Shown here: piece after piece, positions 4,143-15,986 of the stretch
Layout: each line of letters begins with the position of its first letter
Position numbering within the stretch: the first letter of the stretch is position 1
UHGV virus genome: UHGV-0298230
Origin: a virus
DNA: 24,011 nt
Reading direction: 5' to 3' (one strand)
Position numbers and translations under genes: made by a program
Notes under the pieces: model-generated
Seen by the model: the letters and a program-made list of their open reading frames with translations, nothing else
Databases searched by the model: none
Told to the model about the DNA's origin: nothing

Positions 4143-4170
4143 TTAAGGGCGGTATTCGCCCTTAATTTTA
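4143..4170. terminator. Bidirectional rho-independent terminator between the convergent gtrC and tailspike genes
   Basis: Perfect hairpin TTAAGGGCG-gtatt-CGCCCTTAA (4143-4165), flanked by an A-run upstream and TTTTA downstream; sits between stops at 4139-4141 (+) and 4168-4170 (-). Confidence 0.75.
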
Positions 4171-6060
4171 TCTAACTCTTGTTATCATAAAGTCAAAATC
4201 TGCATCAGCCAAGTTGCCAGAGTTATCAGTGGTCACGATCCTGATGGCTGTTGTGCTTGGCTTGCCTGCATATAGCACCTTAAACCCGTTAGTTTTAGTA
4301 CTTGCTACTACCTGAAAGTCATTTACTGTTGGTCCATATAAGAAAGCGCTATCAATTGAATATACCCCTGTGGATTGTTTTGCTATTGTTAAATAAGATG
4401 GTGCATACGCAACACCTGCCGACGTTACACTTCCAGAAATCACCGATGAAGTGCTTACCGTAGATATAGACTTGCTTATGTCCTCACTAAAATGACAGGT
4501 ATCCATTCCATTTAAAGTCATATAAGCACCTCCTGAGATAAATGGTCTCGAAGCGCTAGGTATGTATCCAAAAGCTGTTTGAGTAAAAAAATGACACCCA
4601 TTAAGGTTAACAATGACACGCCCACCACCAGTGCTTAACGCTCTAATCACATATGTACAATAACCGCCTGATGAATTCCCCCTTATAAATGTGCATGAAT
4701 TGATATTTACAATAAGAGGTGAAGATGTCATGTTATTAACCTGAATGTCTGATATTCCTTGATTTGCTTCAAAATAGCAATCAGATATATTTATCACAGA
4801 CATTGGTTCTTTAGCTCTTAGGTAAACACCTCCTGTACCAGTATCTCCCTGAGTTCCATTACCCTCAAAATTGCAGTTGTTTAGATTTATCCTTGTGCCT
4901 ATCTCTCCTTCAATTCCAAATTTTGAGTTACCACTAAAAACACCATTTATTTTTAGTGCGTTAACTGTGCTGTTTGTTCCTCCGTTGATGTACATACCGT
5001 AGTTATTATATTGAGAGTTAATTCTGTTAAATTCACTGGTAAGAACTCCTGTTATTACCAAGCCTGAATTATTTCTTACGAGATACACATCCTCAACTTT
5101 TAGGTATGCAGCATTGCTTAACCTTAATCCAACTCCAGAGTTACCAGTACCATAAACAGTGAAATTAGATAACTTCATACCGCTATGCACACCCTGCCCG
5201 CCCCCTTCTGAATTACCTATATACTCAAGGAAATCATTGCCATTGGTGTTAAATGCAGTATTCGCCATTGACTCGCCAGTAAAGTCAAACCTCTTACTTT
5301 TTCTTCCCATTACAGGAAAATTTGATCCAGAGTGGTTTACTGTAACTTTTGTGGTAGAATTGTATTGCCCATCCTTAATTTCTATACCTCCAGTACCAGT
5401 ATTAAGCATATTTTGAATAGCAGGTGAAACCTCTGTTCCAGATTTCACGCCAAACCATGAAGCCATTTTTGCGCCATTATATGAACGCTTCCAGCGACGG
5501 CCTACTGCATCAATTAATACTGTTCCATCATCATCTTCTGTCGTTGTATCATCTGAATCAAGGAAGAACCATCCTTCTCCTCCATCCTGATTATGTTCTC
5601 TTCCTACGCATTTTATTTGCGTTCCAGAAACGTTAGATGTCCTTATTTGTTCATAAGTCGCCCCAACAATATAAGATTCACCATCAACTGCTGCTAATTT
5701 GTTTATGAAAGCTGGCAATGCCTGATCGGGGTCATACTTCAGCACATTAGGAAAATAGAACTGCTGCGTACCATACGCATCATAAACAGCCATAGAATGG
5801 CCTTGCACGGTAACGAATTTGGCAATCTGTCCGTTATATACAGGGTAACCAGCCGCATTAATGATGATTGGTTGCGAAACAGGAACGTGAGAACCATCTT
5901 CGTTCTCTACATAAACCTGAATCTGGTTTTCAGGATTTACCGGGTCAGTGTCAATTTTACCGATATAAATTTTGCCATTGGCAACCGCTTTAAAAGAACG
6001 CGCCATAGTGAAGAGTTGCGAAGGCATACTCACTACAACATTGGCTGTAATGTCTGTCAT
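4168..6060 (-). CDS. Tailspike protein (630 aa): conserved P22-type N-terminal head-binding domain plus parallel beta-helix receptor-binding/O-antigen-cleaving domain
   Basis: N-terminal ~113 aa ([43 protein letters not shown]...KYDPDQ) closely resembles P22 gp9 head-binding domain; remainder has beta-helix-like repeats ([33 protein letters not shown]). Confidence 0.9.
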
Positions 6061-6135
6061 TTAATTTGCTCCAGATACAAGGAATCGCCGCAGCGTGGCT
6101 ACGGTTGGTATTTGTTGCATACCGAAACGGTACGA

Positions 6136-6164
6136 TTGTTGATTTGTACAGTAGGTTTTACGAT
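6136..6164 (+). promoter_or_regulatory. Candidate sigma70 promoter for the second mnt-like gene (-35 TTGTTG 6136-6141, 17-bp spacer, -10 TACGAT 6159-6164), adjacent to palindrome TACCGaaaCGGTA (6120-6132)
   Basis: Hexamer match and spacing only; weak. Confidence 0.3.
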
Positions 6165-6192
6165 GCCATTCCACCCATTTGGTGAGGCATTG

Positions 6193-6450
6193 ATGATGTA
6201 CAGCAAATACGATGAGGCGCAGTTCCACTTGAGGCTTACGCACGAGTTGCACGCCAAGATTAAGCAACGTGCAAAAATGAATAACAGGTCTATCAATTCC
6301 GAAATTGTGGCTACGATGGAAGAATCGCTCTCCAAACCATCACCTGTAAGCGGGTATCGTGATGAAGAAGAGAGGCTTGCCTCATTAATCTCGGAACGAG
6401 TAAAAGAAGTTGCGGCTGATATTCTTAGAAAAGAAAAAACCCGCGATTAA
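6193..6450 (+). CDS. mnt: Mnt-like ribbon-helix-helix repressor (Arc/Mnt family), 85 aa
   Basis: Sequence MMYSKYDEAQFHLRLTHELHAKIKQRAKMNNRSINSEIVATMEESLSKPSPVSGYRDEEERLA... closely parallels P22 Mnt as I recall it (…NGRSMNSE…SKPSPVTGYRNDAERLA…); SD GGTGAGG 6 nt upstream of the ATG at 6193. The long ORF 5797..6450 in the track is an artefactual N-terminal extension antisense to the tailspike. Confidence 0.8.
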   Translation: MMYSKYDEAQFHLRLTHELHAKIKQRAKMNNRSINSEIVATMEESLSKPSPVSGYRDEEERLASLISERVKEVAADILRKEKTRD

Positions 6451-6458
6451 GCGGGTTT
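6437..6458. terminator. Hairpin terminator AAACCCGC-gattaa-GCGGGTTT between the convergent mnt-like gene and the ant operon
   Basis: 8-bp GC-rich stem; on the minus strand it is followed by a T-run (TTTTTCTTTTC); the loop contains the mnt stop codon. Confidence 0.6.
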
Positions 6459-6464
6459 AATTGG

Positions 6465-6686
6465 TTAGTTATCAAAAAGTCCGTAAGTTTCTTCTTCTTC
6501 AGGTGTAAGGGGAAGAATCTCTACTCTATCTATAGATACCTTTTCAATGTACCCATGAGGTCTACTTAAAATTAAAGCTCTCTCATGCCACAGAACTCCA
6601 AGAATGTGATACCTTCCAGCATCTCCTTTTACCCTGGCTCTTCCTTTGATTCTTGGCGGCATAATGCCATATCTTTTCTTTGCCAT
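6465..6686 (-). CDS. Hypothetical small protein (73 aa), basic N-terminus and acidic C-terminus
   Basis: Start ATG overlaps the stop of the upstream gene (TAATG), indicating translational coupling; MAKKRYGIMPPRIKGRARVKGD...LTPEEEETYGLFDN; no family recognised. Confidence 0.55.
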   Translation of the reverse strand: MAKKRYGIMPPRIKGRARVKGDAGRYHILGVLWHERALILSRPHGYIEKVSIDRVEILPLTPEEEETYGLFDN

Positions 6687-7414
6687 TATGCAACATTGCT
6701 CCCATGAATCAGGTGTTGTAGTGCTTTAACACCCTCCGCATTGTAGCGGAATGCTTCCACCTGTTTGCTTGAATGCGCAGATTTATCCAAGAAGAACTTC
6801 CCGTACTGCTCAGTTTTGAGGTTGTTTGCGTTAGCAATGCGACCAATCTTGTTGGCCGTTACTCCAAGCTGCTCTGCAACCTCCCCTGCTGAGTAGTAAT
6901 GCTCTTCTATTGCCGGAAGAGGTATTGCATTAAAACCAACGAGCGGGTTGATTATACTTGCTGCCGCTGTCTGCTTTGCCTCCGGCGCAAGATTTGGCAT
7001 CAGATCGAACAGATTGGTAACAGCTTCAACCGTCATTTTCAATGTTCGCGCTTGACGATACTCAACAAGTCCACTCGCTGATTTACCGCTTTTAATGTGC
7101 GCTTCTTGCATACTTTCAAGTTGGTCTACCAGTGAGCGGCGAACGGCTTTTGACTCGCGAGCGGCAACTCGCAATGCTTGCTTGATTGACATCTCAATGA
7201 TAACCATCGAAGTTTTGTTCGCTTTTTGCACTACACTTTTTGTGTAGTGCTCTCCATCCAATTCATCTTCAATTTTCTCGATGAATTTGTTATTACGAAC
7301 CTCCGGCTCACCGCACTGTCTACGAGCCTGATTTACCATCTCAAGCAGGCGCTGGCTGTCAATGGTTTTATCCGTGACAACGGATCCGATGTTTGCTACA
7401 TTCTTAAAAGTCAT
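6686..7414 (-). CDS. Antirepressor-type regulatory protein, possibly Rha/ORF6N-like N-terminal region and KilA-C/ANT-like C-terminal region (243 aa from ATG at 7414)
   Basis: AAGGAA 6 nt upstream of the ATG at 7414; C-terminal ...YYSAGEVAEQLGVTANKIGRIANANNLKTEQYGKF resembles antirepressor KilA-C-type motifs; the ORF track start at 7501 is a TTG directly after the upstream stop. Confidence 0.65.
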   Translation of the reverse strand: MTFKNVANIGSVVTDKTIDSQRLLEMVNQARRQCGEPEVRNNKFIEKIEDELDGEHYTKSVVQKANKTSMVIIEMSIKQALRVAARESKAVRRSLVDQLESMQEAHIKSGKSASGLVEYRQARTLKMTVEAVTNLFDLMPNLAPEAKQTAAASIINPLVGFNAIPLPAIEEHYYSAGEVAEQLGVTANKIGRIANANNLKTEQYGKFFLDKSAHSSKQVEAFRYNAEGVKALQHLIHGSNVA

Positions 7415-7482
7415 TAGGCATTCCTTATGTGGTAGTAAGGGTGTGACATAGGCCGCCAGCAGCACACTGGCGGTTTTCTTTT
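7409..7482 (+). ncRNA. Candidate sar-like antisense RNA complementary to the start codon and SD of the 6686..7414 gene
   Basis: Plus-strand terminator CCGCCAG-cagcaca-CTGGCGG followed by TTTTCTTTT (7453-7482) lies in the intergenic gap of a minus-strand operon; candidate promoter -35 GTGACA (7374-7379), -10 TACATT (7397-7402); the transcript would contain UUCCUU, anti-SD to AAGGAA. Confidence 0.4.
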
Positions 7483-7501
7483 GCGCCGTCCTGTGCACCA
7501 A

Positions 7502-8140
7502 TCAATGAATCCATTCCTCGCCGCGAAGTTTTGCCAGCATTGGCTGAGCGTTCTTTACGACAAAATTGTTGGTATCAAGATTCTTCATTTCACGAAGAAG
7601 CGATTTCTTGGTTTCTTCTGACATGTAGCGAGTCTCATATGCAATATCGTAAATCCTTCCAGAAAGCTCAGAACCAATTTGCTTCATTCCTGGGTAGATG
7701 TGTTTGCACATTTGTTGACTCTTCTCCATCCACAATTGTAAGTAGCAGAGATTAACCAGCTCTTCGTCAGTAAACTGTTTTGCAATCGGTGAGCATTCTG
7801 CCTGCCGATCCAAAATATCCAGCACCCAGCGGCGGAACTCTTTGGCCTTGGGCGTAGAAGCAAACATCGCCACCAAGTGAGCGCCTCGGAGCGAGTAAAC
7901 TCTGACCGATTTGTTACGTAAGCTATTGTTTATCCCGTTGACCTTCATATTGAGGGTCAATGACATTGAGTCGGAAAATTCGTCAGCATTACGGGCATAA
8001 ATTTGGCTGATGGCATCAGTTTTTTTATAGCCGAGAGCCTTAGCTAGTTCGGCGGAGGTGAACCAGATAGACCCGCCCTCTGTTACAGGGTTAAAAGTGA
8101 ATCCTTGGAAGTTATAATCTGATTTTGCTACAATATTCAT
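7502..8140 (-). CDS. Antirepressor-type protein with Bro-N/AntA-like N-terminal domain (212 aa from ATG at 8140)
   Basis: AAGGAA 6 nt upstream of the ATG at 8140; N-terminal region (FNPVTEGGSIWFTSAELAKALGYKK...VRVYSLRGAHLVAMFASTPKAKEFRRWVLDIL) matches the Bro-N/AntA pattern; the track's longer ORF start at 8224 overlaps the arc-like gene and lacks an SD. Confidence 0.7.
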   Translation of the reverse strand: MNIVAKSDYNFQGFTFNPVTEGGSIWFTSAELAKALGYKKTDAISQIYARNADEFSDSMSLTLNMKVNGINNSLRNKSVRVYSLRGAHLVAMFASTPKAKEFRRWVLDILDRQAECSPIAKQFTDEELVNLCYLQLWMEKSQQMCKHIYPGMKQIGSELSGRIYDIAYETRYMSEETKKSLLREMKNLDTNNFVVKNAQPMLAKLRGEEWIH

Positions 8141-8215
8141 GTTAGTTTCCTTGGGTACGGTTACTGACATAGAGGCCCGGTTTGTGTTCGCGCACTTCCG
8201 GGCTTCACTATTTTT
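8141..8215 (+). ncRNA. Candidate sar-like antisense RNA covering the SD and start of the Bro-N antirepressor gene
   Basis: Plus-strand candidate promoters (-35 TTGGAA 8105-8110 / -10 TACAAT 8129-8134, or -10 TATAAT 8113-8118) inside the 5' end of the minus-strand gene; imperfect stem-loop 8173-8205 followed by TATTTTT (8209-8215) in the arc-ant gap; arrangement matches P22 sar RNA. Confidence 0.4.
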
Positions 8216-8390
8216 ACTGGGCATTAGCTCTTTCCTCTCTCAGGCTTTTAGCCAGTCGCTGCACAATCGCAGAGTTGATAGAAATTCCATCCATTTCAGC
8301 TACGCGTCTGATCTCCTCCTTCATTCGCGCTGGCAAACGAAGCTGGAAACTCTGACTTTTACGACCACTGTAAAGAACATCGCTCATCAT
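8214..8390 (-). CDS. arc: Arc-like ribbon-helix-helix repressor (58 aa from ATG at 8390; track ORF extends to 8405)
   Basis: ...SQSFQLRLPARMKEEIRRVAEMDGISINSAIVQRLAKSL... has the Arc/Mnt RHH signature; GGAG 6 nt upstream of the ATG at 8390; divergent from the mnt-like gene across an operator-rich region, as in P22 immI. Confidence 0.75.
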   Translation of the reverse strand: MMSDVLYSGRKSQSFQLRLPARMKEEIRRVAEMDGISINSAIVQRLAKSLREERANAQ

Positions 8391-8401
8391 CAATATCTCC
8401 G

Positions 8402-8475
8402 TCATAATGACATCACCGTGATGTCATGACACCATTATGATGCCATTGCTCATAATGTCAATATGATGCTACTGT
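8402..8475. promoter_or_regulatory. Divergent promoter/operator region: 21-bp perfect palindrome ATGACATCA-ccg-TGATGTCAT (8407-8427), repeated TCATAAT/ATTATGA half-sites, and a strong minus-strand promoter (-35 TTGACA at 8461..8456, 16-bp spacer, -10 CATAAT at 8439..8434)
   Basis: Direct reading; the palindrome lies at about +1 of the minus-strand promoter, consistent with an operator for an RHH repressor. Confidence 0.55.
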
Positions 8476-8510
8476 GTTTTTTATTGCTCATATGCCTTGC
8501 GAATAAGAAA

Positions 8511-8762
8511 ATGTCAGAAAAAGACGAATCAAATTTCATAGAAAGATTTACGGTTAGAATGCCTGAAGGCATGCGTAGTGCTATTGCGGAAAGGGCTAAA
8601 CGAAACGGTCGATCTATGAACTCAGAGATAGTTCAAATTCTTGAGGATGCGTTATCATCTGACGTCTCATCAGTAGACAAATCATTAGATCTTAAACAAA
8701 TAAAATCTTTACTTGATAAAATTTCCAACGAGTTACTGGATAGAATCCCAAAAGACACATAA
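8511..8762 (+). CDS. mnt: Mnt-like ribbon-helix-helix repressor (83 aa from ATG at 8511)
   Basis: MSEKDESNFIERFTVRMPEGMRSAIAERAKRNGRSMNSEIVQILEDAL... has the Arc/Mnt signature (NGRSMNSE); same length as P22 Mnt; the track start at 8463 lies inside the operator region. Confidence 0.75.
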   Translation: MSEKDESNFIERFTVRMPEGMRSAIAERAKRNGRSMNSEIVQILEDALSSDVSSVDKSLDLKQIKSLLDKISNELLDRIPKDT

Positions 8763-14568: not shown

Positions 14569-15986
14569 TACTCAATCCTTATCTGGCAGCCAGACAGAGT
14601 GACAGGTGACTTCGTGATAACGCGCAATTTGAAGCCGACATTTTTCCTGATGCGCCCGACTCGCTTCCACAAAACACGTTTGTCATAAACGAACGGTTCA
14701 TTCTGCTCAATCATCTGCTCACGCCCGTAATTGATGCCGTCAGTGGTTGCAGAGAGGAACAGGCGGTCGGCGTACTGCGCAACGCCAGTTGACGATTCAA
14801 CCTCAAGGTCGAAAACTCTGGCGTTATCCGCTTTGAACAGTGGAGTAAACAGCAGGTGTTCCTGTTGCTTGTCGTACTGGCTGCTGATATCGAACTGCAA
14901 TTTCCCGGTAACAGATTCCAGCTTATCGCCGCACGTTATCTGATTGCCTTCGTAAATGAAGTCGATAGCGCGGTACACATCGTCATACAGGCCTGTTTTC
15001 AGCACACACCATTGCGGACCATTGGCGCTTGAAGATGCGTCGTAAACAAGAACATGGCGCGGCAGGTGAATAATCAGCAACTCATGAGCATCAAACCGCA
15101 ACGATTCCATCACGCCATCAGCCAGTTCATCAGCAGTGTAGGAGCGGAGGATTTTCTCAATGCTCGCGCTGGCGATTGGTGACACCTGACCGGAGCCAAT
15201 GATGTATACAGACGGCGCACCTGTTGCCGGATTGCTGATGAATGCATAGGAATCAGCAAACGGCGTTTTGCAGTAAGTCCCGGCGATGCCTTTTTGCACC
15301 ATCAGCGATGGCTGTGCGACATACAAAGCAGCACCAACGGTGGTTGCGCCAGTCAGGGAGAAATATTCAATCGTCGATGAACCAAAGCAGACGATGAAGT
15401 CTCGCCATGTGCCGATACCGATGATGCCGTCAGGCTGAGACTCTGCACGATATTGTGCGCTGTATCGGTCAGGGTGCGATTCGTCTTCAAGGTCAGTGAT
15501 AAACCATGAATCAGTTCCGTCTTTTGACCACGCATAACGCCCACGTAAGCGCGTAATATCGCGGACTGAGCCTAACTCATACTGAGTGAATCCGCTGTCT
15601 GTAGGCCAGTTTGAGACGGTTTTAACCGTGCCATCATAGCGATACTCGACCAGTTGACCATTAACGCCTACCGCCTGTGATGTCCTACCATGCGCCATTG
15701 ATACGCGACCACTTCCGGAGACGTCACCGACTTCGCTTTCGCCTTTGTACAGCTTGCCGCCACACACACGATAAACAGCATTCTGCGCCATGTTGTACTC
15801 GACTCCACGCGATACACCGTTTACATCAGAGCGTTTGGCAATGCCCGGGAATGAGCGAAGATATCCGCTGCTGTTGAGTATTTCTTTGGGTGTAGCCAGC
15901 ATATTCACTGGCAGATAGTCGATATAGTCAGCGTTTCTAAAGTCTTTGCCGACACCTTTCATAAGCGGAAGTTGCTGAATAGGCAT
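14568..15986 (-). CDS. Tail accessory/hub protein, P22 gp10-like (472 aa)
   Basis: Same length as P22 gp10; synteny. Confidence 0.85.

What the first reader, a model, noticed from the sequence alone, without database searches (positions are those of the whole stretch)
8105..8215. Candidate sar-like antisense RNA over the Bro-N antirepressor start
Near-consensus -10 elements (TATAAT at 8113-8118, TACAAT at 8129-8134) on the plus strand sit inside the 5' end of the minus-strand antirepressor gene. A plus-strand stem-loop plus T-run (8173-8215) lies in the arc-ant gap. The resulting transcript would carry UUCCUU complementary to the antirepressor SD. Together with the finding at 7374-7482, this suggests each antirepressor gene has its own antisense regulator.
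Basis: partly seen in the sequence, partly recalled or inferred. Interest (0 to 1): 0.6.

Follow-up and report, generated by a model that had tools for sequence, protein, structure and literature searches.

The report
Divergent sar antisense RNA over ant
This is a diverged, unannotated copy of the classic phage P22 "sar" antisense RNA, a roughly 75-base transcript predicted to block translation of the prophage's antirepressor gene; the kind is well known, so the finding is real but ordinary.

Summary
No expression data were available.

**Context.** The window is the immI ("ant moron") region of a P22-like E. coli prophage, in reverse orientation to P22.

**Layout on the + strand:**
- A promoter (TTGGAA, 18 nt, TG-n-TACAAT) occupies ant nucleotides 7-37, where P22 has Psar.
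- The predicted start, 8141, is the base next to the ant ATG.
- The RNA folds into a 5' hairpin carrying the anti-Shine-Dalgarno UUCCUU in its loop.
- A terminator hairpin and U-run follow, overlapping the arc stop codon. P22 sar has the same layout.

**Homology.**
- The region is 76% identical to the P22 sar region.
- A covariance model built only from P22-type relatives finds it as the single significant hit in the window.
- All 80 loci retrieved with the Ant protein carry the element abutting the ant ATG.
- Across 68 distinct variants, 97.5% of stem positions pair, and 9 of 15 pairs show compensatory changes.

**Limits.**
- Rfam's sar model (RF00262) misses this allele.
- No fetched public record annotates it.
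- The TATAAT at 8113-8118 is a non-conserved synonymous polymorphism.

**Seen in passing.**
- The 119-bp sar unit recombines independently of arc and ant.
- The second antirepressor gene has its own antisense unit. It has the same layout, but the sar models do not detect it.

The parts
8105..8110 (+). Predicted -35 of the Psar-like promoter. It reads TTGGAA with an 18-nt spacer, or TGGAAG with a 17-nt spacer.
   Evidence: Found by the promoter scan. The block CC[T/G]TGGAAGTT is conserved in all Bro-N-type ant relatives. It overlaps ant codons N-F-Q-G, so coding constraint also contributes to its conservation.
8126..8134 (+). Extended -10, TGC-TACAAT, at ant nucleotides 7-15. This is the counterpart of the P22 Psar -10 (TGC-TATACT).
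   Evidence: The hexamer lies at ant nucleotides 7-12, the same offset as the 3' end of the annotated P22 Psar at 15097-15125. It is present in 80 of 80 Ant-selected loci: 31 of 32 distinct upstream sequences have TACAAT and one has TACACT.
8113..8118 (+). TATAAT, a possible allele-specific second -10. It is not conserved.
   Evidence: With TTAAAA at a 16-nt spacing it scores 10 of 12. Many relatives read TGTAAT, a synonymous TAT/TAC change in an ant Tyr codon, and P22 and KP12 lack it.
8141..8215 (+). Predicted sar-like antisense RNA of about 72-75 nt.
   Evidence: The ends are inferred from P22 sar (15090 to 15021). Model R1 scores it at 80.2 bits. The independent model R2 scores it at 33 bits, E = 2e-4, as the only significant hit in the window. 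The fold z-score is -4.56.
8141..8168 (+). 5' hairpin. The stem pairs 8141-8146 (GUUAGU) with 8163-8168 (ACUGAC), and the anti-SD lies in the loop.
   Evidence: Seen in the fold. All 6 pairs show compensatory changes across the family. Of 72 variants, 71 fold into this architecture.
8147..8152 (+). Anti-Shine-Dalgarno UUCCUU, the complement of the ant SD (AAGGAA).
   Evidence: Read directly from the sequence. Most family variants carry a pyrimidine-rich UUCC, CUCC or UCUC motif at the same loop position.
8172..8206 (+). Terminator hairpin: 9 outer pairs (GAGGCCCGG with CCGGGCUUC), an internal loop, then 4 inner pairs.
   Evidence: Seen in the fold. The outer helix pairs in 100% of cells, and 3 pairs show changes on both sides. 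On the minus strand no T-run follows the hairpin.
8211..8215 (+). U-run of the terminator, overlapping the arc stop codon (TAA at 8216..8214).
   Evidence: Read from the sequence. P22 sar likewise ends 2 nt inside the arc stop codon.
7502..8140 (-). ant1, an antirepressor of 212 aa with Bro-N and P22_AR_C domains. This is the target gene.
   Evidence: Pfam and PHROGs matches. RefSeq annotates the same start codon in relatives.
8214..8405 (-). arc, an Arc-like ribbon-helix-helix repressor. The start codon is uncertain (8405, 8390 or 8387).
   Evidence: PF03869 match at E = 9e-12.
8434..8467 (.). Divergent, overlapping promoters of the Pant and Pmnt type. Minus strand: TTGACA-16-CATAAT. Plus strand: ATGCCA-16-TATGAT.
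   Evidence: Found by the promoter scan; the minus-strand site scores 11 of 12. The arrangement matches P22.
8511..8762 (+). mnt-like ribbon-helix-helix repressor gene.
   Evidence: PF03869 match at E = 5e-18.
7374..7484 (+). Second antisense unit, over the start of ant2 (ATG 7414..7412). It has the same layout as sar but the sar models do not detect it. It comprises GTGACA-17-TG-n-TACATT, a predicted start near 7409, a terminator hairpin at 7450-7476 and a U-run.
   Evidence: Found by the scans. The layout is conserved across at least 5 divergent types of downstream gene, with compensatory changes in the terminator stem. Model R1 does not hit it.

Best explanation
The interval encodes a diverged homologue of the phage P22 sar RNA, a cis-encoded antisense RNA of about 72-75 nt.

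**Shown or directly read from sequence.**
- A sigma-70 promoter (TTGGAA, 18 nt, TG-n-TACAAT) lies inside ant codons 3-13.
- The predicted start, 8141, is the base adjacent to the ant ATG.
- The RNA is the exact complement of the whole arc-ant intercistronic leader, including the ant Shine-Dalgarno sequence.
- It ends at an intrinsic terminator overlapping the arc stop codon.
- The RNA folds into a 5' hairpin that presents the anti-SD in its loop, followed by the terminator hairpin.

**Inferred from P22.**
- The RNA would pair with ant mRNA made from Pant or by read-through from the late operon.
- Pairing would occlude the ribosome-binding site and so keep antirepressor synthesis low once Arc has shut Pant down. 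This would protect the establishment and maintenance of lysogeny.
- The convergent Pant and Psar promoters probably interfere with each other.
For: **Context.** This is an immI-type region: a mnt-like gene, divergent Pant/Pmnt-like promoters, arc, ant, and a tailspike gene downstream.

**Positional identity with annotated P22 sar.**
- The -10 is at ant nucleotides 7-12 in both.
- The 5' end is at position -1 of the ant ATG in both.
- The 3' end lies in the arc stop codon in both.

**Sequence and fold.**
- The region is 76% identical to the P22 sar region, with shared blocks TTGCTA.A.TATTCATGTT.GTTT, TTACTGACA and GA.GCCC...GGGCTTC.
- Both fold into the same two hairpins: the window at -31.0 kcal/mol (z = -4.56) and P22 at -29.5 kcal/mol (z = -5.26).

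**The family.**
- A pattern scan gave 120 viral loci with 72 distinct RNA bodies, and 71 of the 72 fold the same way.
- On the model-based alignment of 68 distinct sequences, 97.5% of cells pair.
- Nine of 15 pairs and 84 cells show changes on both sides.
- No shuffle out of 500 reached any of the five measures, and slid-partner controls pair in only 26-56% of cells.

**Strand.** G-U wobbles make up 187 of 1017 cells (18%). These would be A-C mismatches on the mRNA strand, so selection appears to act on the + strand RNA.

**Independent tests of membership.**
- Model R2, built only from P22-type relatives, hits 8141-8218 (+) at 33 bits, E = 2e-4. The next best hit scores 9.6 bits.
- In a sample selected through the Ant protein, 80 of 80 loci have the element exactly abutting the ant ATG.
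- Rfam RF00262 itself accepts sister alleles (L026 at 59 bits, L063 at 48 bits, L009 at 47 bits). L063-type bodies sit next to an ant gene 99% identical to this one, and L026-type bodies next to an 83%-identical one.

**Literature.** The P22 sar mechanism is RBS occlusion, and sar is detected in infected cells (PMC7968456, PMC13397905, PMC12111858, PMC2629481).
Against: - No expression data exist for this allele.
- Rfam RF00262 gives no hit in the window, even at E <= 10 over 1.2 kb.
- The -35 is weak (4 of 6). The whole promoter overlaps coding sequence, so part of its conservation could be due to the protein.
- Promoter-like hexamers are no more frequent here than in shuffles.
- The U-run is separated from the hairpin by 4 nt (ACUA), so termination efficiency is uncertain. 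P22's proven terminator is similarly imperfect.
- The pattern scan fixed the -10, the CAT and GARGCC by construction.
- The covariation alignment was fitted to the model.
Confidence: 0.82

Rival explanations
1. The conserved hairpins act in the sense arc-ant mRNA, for example as an RNase processing site, a stabiliser, or a structure that limits ant translation. On this view there is no functional antisense transcript, and the promoter-like hexamers are by-products of the conserved Ant N-terminus (M-N-x-[I/V]-A).
For: The complementary hairpins can also form in the mRNA leader (-22.9 kcal/mol, z = -2.33). Watson-Crick covariation cannot tell the two strands apart. The -10 overlaps conserved codons.
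Against: - About 18% of paired cells are G-U wobbles on the + strand, which become A-C mismatches in the mRNA.
- The + strand fold is much stronger (z = -4.56 against -2.33).
- The U-run follows the hairpin only on the + strand.
- -35-like hexamers appear at a 17-nt spacing in unrelated ant coding contexts.
- The P22 homologue is an experimentally established RNA, seen again in RNA-seq (PMC13397905).
Confidence: 0.08
2. A short + strand RNA is made but has no specific regulatory role. The terminator merely stops stray antisense transcription from entering arc and mnt, or the promoter acts mainly by convergent transcriptional interference with Pant rather than through RNA pairing.
For: Pant and the Psar-like promoter face each other about 300 bp apart. 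Any antisense RNA here is complementary to the SD by construction.
Against: - A mere insulator would not need the 5' hairpin, which is conserved and covaries and presents the anti-SD in its loop.
- The transcript covers exactly the leader from the ATG to the arc stop codon in all variants.
- P22 sar is reported to act by blocking the RBS (PMC7968456).
Confidence: 0.07
3. Chance: near-consensus hexamers and a GC-rich hairpin occur together in an AT-rich intergenic gap with no function.
For: The hexamer count is not above the shuffle expectation.
Against: - The fold z-score is -4.56.
- All 80 Ant-selected loci carry the element.
- Covariation is strong.
- An independent model detects it.
- The element matches P22 sar in position and sequence.
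Confidence: 0.01

Closest known systems
Phage P22 sar RNA (Rfam RF00262; NC_002371 15021-15090, Psar 15097-15125)
   Same: - It is antisense to the arc-ant intercistronic leader.
- The promoter lies in ant nucleotides 7-35, with TG-n-TA...T.
- The 5' end is adjacent to the ant ATG.
- The terminator overlaps the arc stop codon.
- It has the same two-hairpin fold.
- The region is 76% identical.
   Different: - It scores below Rfam's threshold, with no hit at E <= 10.
- The terminator hairpin is a different allele: GAGGCCCGG with an internal loop, against P22's perfect 14-bp stem.
- The RNA is about 5 nt longer.
- The target ant gene is a Bro-N/P22_AR_C type of 212 aa rather than P22 Ant of 300 aa.
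- The RNA has not been observed experimentally.
Sar genes annotated in other P22-like phages (for example epsilon34; PMC2629481)
   Same: The same immI 'ant moron' context and the same family.
   Different: Those are near-identical to P22 sar. That paper reads the E. coli HS-1 type moron, which carries this window's 119-bp cassette at 95% identity, as differently regulated because it lacks a recognisable arc. The passages retrieved from the paper do not mention a sar there.
Phage P1/P7 c4 antisense RNA (immI; controls icd-ant translation). From my own knowledge, not checked here.
   Same: A small RNA that represses antirepressor synthesis by masking a ribosome-binding site in an immunity-I region.
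   Different: c4 is processed from the same transcript as its target and acts on short complementary sites. It is not a cis-antisense transcript from the opposite strand. No sequence relationship was tested.
Other cis-antisense RNAs that occlude a ribosome-binding site: IS10 RNA-OUT, lambda OOP, P22 sas. From my own knowledge plus PMC7968456 and PMC13397905.
   Same: Short, hairpin-rich RNAs that end at an intrinsic terminator, are fully complementary to a translation-initiation or coding region, and have an exposed loop for initial contact.
   Different: They belong to unrelated loci and have unrelated sequences. OOP acts on the 3' end of cII through RNase III.

Membership tests
sar RNA (biological family defined by P22 sar) | Transcribed antisense to the arc-ant intercistronic region, with the 5' end next to the ant start codon and the 3' end at the arc stop codon | tested here: met
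   The predicted RNA spans 8141 to about 8215. The ant ATG is 8140..8138 and the arc stop is 8216..8214. In P22, sar is 15090..15021, ant starts at 15091 and arc ends at 15022. The ends are predicted, not mapped.
sar RNA (biological family defined by P22 sar) | Psar promoter inside the first ~35 nt of ant, on the opposite strand | tested here: met
   TTGGAA-18-TGC-TACAAT occupies ant nucleotides 7-36, against nucleotides 7-35 in P22. It is conserved in 80 of 80 Ant-selected loci. Promoter activity cannot be tested with these tools.
sar RNA (biological family defined by P22 sar) | Two-hairpin structure: a 5' hairpin containing the anti-SD, then a terminator hairpin and U-run | tested here: met
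   Folds of the window and P22 RNAs. Of 72 variants, 71 fold this way. In the family alignment 97.5% of cells pair and 9 of 15 pairs covary.
sar RNA (biological family defined by P22 sar) | Detectable sequence and structure homology to P22-type sar, independent of the window's own sequence | tested here: met
   Model R2, built from 10 P22-type relatives with no window-type sequence, scores 33 bits, E = 2e-4 (a rough value), as the only hit in 24 kb on both strands. Pairwise identity is 76%.
sar RNA (biological family defined by P22 sar) | immI gene context: mnt-type repressor, divergent Pant/Pmnt promoters, arc, ant | tested here: met
sar RNA (biological family defined by P22 sar) | A ~70-nt RNA is made and represses ant translation by pairing with the ribosome-binding site | not testable with these tools
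   This needs a Northern blot or dRNA-seq, plus reporter fusions.
Rfam RF00262 (sar) as curated | Score at or above the gathering threshold of 43 bits | tested here: not met
   There is no hit in the window at the gathering threshold, and none at E <= 10 in 7300-8500. The model works on P22 (97.8 bits) and on sister alleles L026, L063 and L009 (59, 48 and 47 bits). It misses 12 of the 16 diverse loci scanned. The miss therefore reflects a narrow model, but operationally this allele lies outside RF00262.
SymR antitoxin RNA (RF01809) | Score at or above the gathering threshold of 61 bits | tested here: not met
   It scores 18.4 bits, E = 1.4, at 8138-8209. This is a chance resemblance between hairpin RNAs.

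The most novel reading that the evidence does not exclude
The most novel reading the evidence allows has two parts.

**A shuffling regulatory cassette.** The sar unit would be a self-contained cassette of about 119 bp. It has a promoter module (8102-8140) and an RNA-body module (8141-8220). It recombines at precise joints among unrelated ant bodies, arc-like genes and upstream repressors, which are Mnt-type or CI/LexA-type S24 proteins.

**A second antisense RNA.** Tandem antirepressor genes would each carry their own antisense RNA. The one over ant2 (about 7409-7480) would be an undescribed RNA family with the same design as sar, though the sar models do not detect it. That would make layered antisense control a general rule of antirepressor modules well beyond P22.
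Probability: 0.5. Interest if true: 0.45.

Novelty: new member of a known kind. Interest (0 to 1): 0.3.

Why it matters
- **Reach of the sar circuit.** The textbook P22 sar circuit is not peculiar to P22-type Ant. It accompanies Bro-N-type antirepressors in many E. coli, Salmonella and Klebsiella prophages.
- **Annotation gaps.** The current Rfam model and genome annotation miss most of these alleles. Several records instead extend the ant ORF over the RNA gene.
- **Practical use.** A broader sar model would correct those annotations.
- **Prediction.** Antirepressor output in these prophages, and hence induction and cross-induction, should be under antisense control.
- **Biological novelty.** This is modest, because both the mechanism and the family are already known.

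Tried and rejected
1. **Rfam at gathering and at E <= 10** gave nothing relevant in the window. The weak SymR and ctRNA matches are chance.
2. **MAFFT plus RNAalifold on 51 variants** recovered only the base of the terminator. Indels put the 5' hairpins out of register. I replaced this with a hand-structured seed and a model-based alignment.
3. **TATAAT 8113-8118 as the main -10** was rejected, because it is a non-conserved synonymous polymorphism.
4. **The upstream ATG at 8224 as the ant start** (240-aa ORF) was rejected. SPN3UB and KP12 call ant from an upstream start that overlaps arc. I favour 8140 for three reasons:
   - the Shine-Dalgarno spacing fits;
   - the ATGAATAxTxTAGCAA block is conserved;
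   - RefSeq calls the 8140 start.
5. **The second antisense unit as a sar paralogue** was tested with model R1 and gave no hit.
6. **The primary P22 papers** (Liao 1987; Schaefer and McClure 1997) are not held in the library. Statements about promoter interference rest on my own knowledge and on secondary sources.
7. **A transcriptomics paper on Salmonella prophages** (PMC7067206) held nothing on this element.

Full report
**What the window is**

The region around the finding is the immunity-I ("ant moron") region of a P22-like (Lederbergvirus) prophage of E. coli, in the opposite orientation to P22.

On the minus strand lie:
- a tailspike gene (4168-6060);
- a second antirepressor gene, ant2 (6686-7414; phrog_1726);
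- ant1 (7502-8140; Bro-N plus P22_AR_C);
- arc (8214-about 8390; PF03869).

On the plus strand lies a mnt-like ribbon-helix-helix gene (8511-8762). Divergent overlapping promoters sit at 8434-8467, including TTGACA-16-CATAAT on the minus strand.

The closest phage record is Escherichia phage JEP4, at 95.5% identity over 6048-8220. Parts of 7900-8420 occur in 76 of 5426 complete E. coli genomes.

**Check of the observation**

All features are at the stated coordinates:
- TATAAT is at 8113-8118 and TACAAT at 8129-8134.
- UUCCUU is at 8147-8152. It is the complement of the ant Shine-Dalgarno AAGGAA, which lies 6 nt upstream of the ATG at 8140..8138.
- The hairpin is at 8172-8206, and the T-run at 8211-8215 overlaps the arc stop codon.

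The hexamers alone are not above chance: the scan found 7 promoter-like sites against 5.8 +/- 2.5 in shuffles. The RNA from 8141 to 8216 folds at -31.0 kcal/mol against -16.8 +/- 3.1 for shuffles (z = -4.56; 0 of 200 shuffles fold as well). It forms two hairpins: a 5' hairpin (8141-8168) with the anti-SD in its loop, and a terminator hairpin.

**Comparison with P22**

The P22 record annotates these features:

| Feature | Coordinates in NC_002371 |
|---|---|
| sar | 15021-15090 |
| sar terminator | 15021-15058 |
| Psar | 15097-15125 |
| ant start | 15091 |
| arc end | 15022 |

Relative to ant and arc, the window has the same layout. The -10 is at ant nucleotides 7-12, the start is at the base adjacent to the ATG, and the end lies inside the arc stop codon.

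- The two regions align at 76% identity, with shared blocks across the extended -10, the start codon, both arms of hairpin 1 and the base of the terminator.
- P22 sar folds into the same two hairpins.
- Rfam's sar model scores P22 at 97.8 bits.
- It gives no hit in the window, either at the gathering threshold or at E <= 10.

**The family**

A pattern fixing only the -10, the start codon and GARGCC retrieved 120 viral contigs with 72 distinct RNA bodies.

- Of these, 71 fold as a 5' hairpin starting at +1 or +2, a short linker, and a terminator.
- Hairpin 1 occurs in at least ten arm combinations that are complementary to each other. Examples are GUUAGU/ACUGAC, GUCGA/UCGAU, AUCAGUU/AACUGGU, GUUCG/CGGAC and GUUAAUUC/GGGUUAAC.
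- I built a covariance model (R1) from 11 window-type and P22-type sequences, with 15 hand-assigned pairs. It aligned 69 matches.

Results on that alignment:

| Measure | Result |
|---|---|
| Cells forming a standard pair | 97.5% |
| Pairs with a change on both sides | 9 of 15, including all 6 of hairpin 1 |
| Cells with a change on both sides | 84 |
| Shuffles reaching any of the five measures | 0 of 500 |
| Cells paired with partners slid by 1-3 columns | 26-56% |

The alignment was fitted to the model, so these numbers lean towards the structure.

G-U wobbles account for 187 of 1017 cells. These would be A-C mismatches on the mRNA strand, which points to selection on the plus-strand RNA. 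In the same direction, the sense-strand leader folds less well (z = -2.33), and only the plus strand has a U-run after the hairpin.

**Tests of membership that do not depend on the window's own sequence**

- *Independent model.* R2 was built from ten P22-type relatives only. It finds 8141-8218 (+) at 33 bits, E = 2e-4 (a rough value). This is the only significant hit in the window; the next best scores 9.6 bits.
- *Sample selected through the Ant protein.* All 80 loci (76-100% amino-acid identity) have an R1 hit exactly abutting the ant ATG, and all keep TG-n-TACAAT (one has TACACT). These loci are fairly close relatives, so this shows consistency rather than deep conservation.
- *Bridge to Rfam.* RF00262 accepts sister alleles L026, L063 and L009 (59, 48 and 47 bits) but misses 12 of 16 diverse loci. 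L063-type bodies sit beside an ant gene 99% identical to this one, and L026-type bodies beside an 83%-identical one. The window's allele is therefore linked to curated sar through intermediates. The Rfam miss reflects a narrow seed.

**Mosaic structure**

BLAST against E. coli genomes shows sharp joints at 8102, 8140/8141 and 8220.
- Some genomes share only 8102-8220. E. coli HS is an example, at 95% identity, with a different ant body, a barely recognisable ribbon-helix-helix gene in place of arc, and a CI/LexA-type HTH-S24 repressor in place of mnt.
- Others share the ant gene up to the ATG but carry a different RNA body.

The promoter module and the RNA-body module thus shuffle as units.

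**Which -10?**

TACAAT with its upstream TG is the counterpart of the Psar -10 and is conserved. TATAAT at 8113-8118 rests on a synonymous TAT/TAC polymorphism and is missing from many relatives and from P22. It could add a longer transcript in this allele, but it is not part of the conserved design.

**Mechanism**

[quoted passage not shown] This includes Ant made from late-operon read-through transcripts (PMC7968456, PMC12111858, PMC2629481). The RNA is seen in P22-infected cells (PMC13397905).

*Supported here:* the gene layout, the fold and its conservation.

*Not shown here:* transcription, termination and repression. Interference between the convergent Pant and Psar promoters is my recollection of the 1987 papers, which the library does not hold.

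**Novelty**

The kind is known. This allele is not recognised by Rfam. It is not annotated in any of the fetched records, two of which (KP12 and SPN3UB) extend the ant ORF across it. I rate it a new member of a known kind, of modest interest.

**The second antirepressor**

The second antirepressor has an analogous antisense unit. The promoter is GTGACA-17-TG-n-TACATT at 7374-7402, and the terminator is at 7450-7476 with a U-run.
- The layout is conserved across at least five divergent types of downstream gene, with compensatory changes in the terminator stem.
- The predicted RNAs are 64-75 nt.
- The sar model does not detect it, and Rfam has no significant match.

It is the more novel lead.

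Noticed in passing
window 7374-7484 (+): A second antisense unit lies over the start of ant2 (ATG 7414..7412). It comprises GTGACA-17-TG-n-TACATT, a predicted start near 7409, a terminator hairpin at 7450-7476 and UUUUCUUUU. The same layout (nnGACA-17-TGnTA[C/A]ATT plus a plus-strand terminator with compensatory stem changes) recurs across at least 5 divergent types of gene downstream of ant1. The predicted RNAs are 64-75 nt. The sar models do not detect it and Rfam has no significant match.
   Followed up: partly
window 8102, 8140/8141 and 8220: These are sharp mosaic joints. The 119-bp sar cassette (8102-8220) occurs on its own in E. coli HS-type prophages with a different ant body and a different upstream gene. 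Other genomes share ant up to the ATG but carry a different sar body.
   Followed up: partly
L003 (E. coli HS, NC_009800) 1613-2527: In the HS-type module the sar cassette is flanked by a 57-aa protein with only sub-threshold ribbon-helix-helix similarity (ParD-like at E = 8e-4, Arc at E = 0.011). In place of Mnt there is a divergent HTH plus S24-peptidase (CI/LexA-like) repressor. The epsilon34 paper (PMC2629481) described HS-1 as lacking arc.
   Followed up: partly
window ~6196-6450 (+): There is an additional Arc/Mnt-like ribbon-helix-helix gene (PF03869, E = 4e-15) on the plus strand, between the tailspike gene and orf73/ant2. It is convergent with them, and a terminator-like hairpin lies at 6437-6458 on the minus strand. 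JEP4 annotates its homologue as 'regulatory protein mnt'. The module therefore has two Mnt-like genes.
   Followed up: no
L206 (SPN3UB) 942-1664; L005 (KP12) 936-1619: These GenBank records call ant from an upstream ATG, the equivalent of window 8224. The annotated ORF then overlaps arc and covers the whole sar region. RefSeq E. coli records use the shorter start. No fetched record annotates an RNA here.
   Followed up: partly
L026, L063 and L009 against 12 other loci: Rfam RF00262 recognises only 4 of 16 diverse sar-family loci at its gathering score. The curated model therefore covers a minority of the family's alleles.
   Followed up: partly
window 6465-6686 (-): A conserved 73-aa ORF (phrog_4977, unknown function) lies immediately downstream of ant2. 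Its start overlaps the ant2 stop codon by one base.
   Followed up: no
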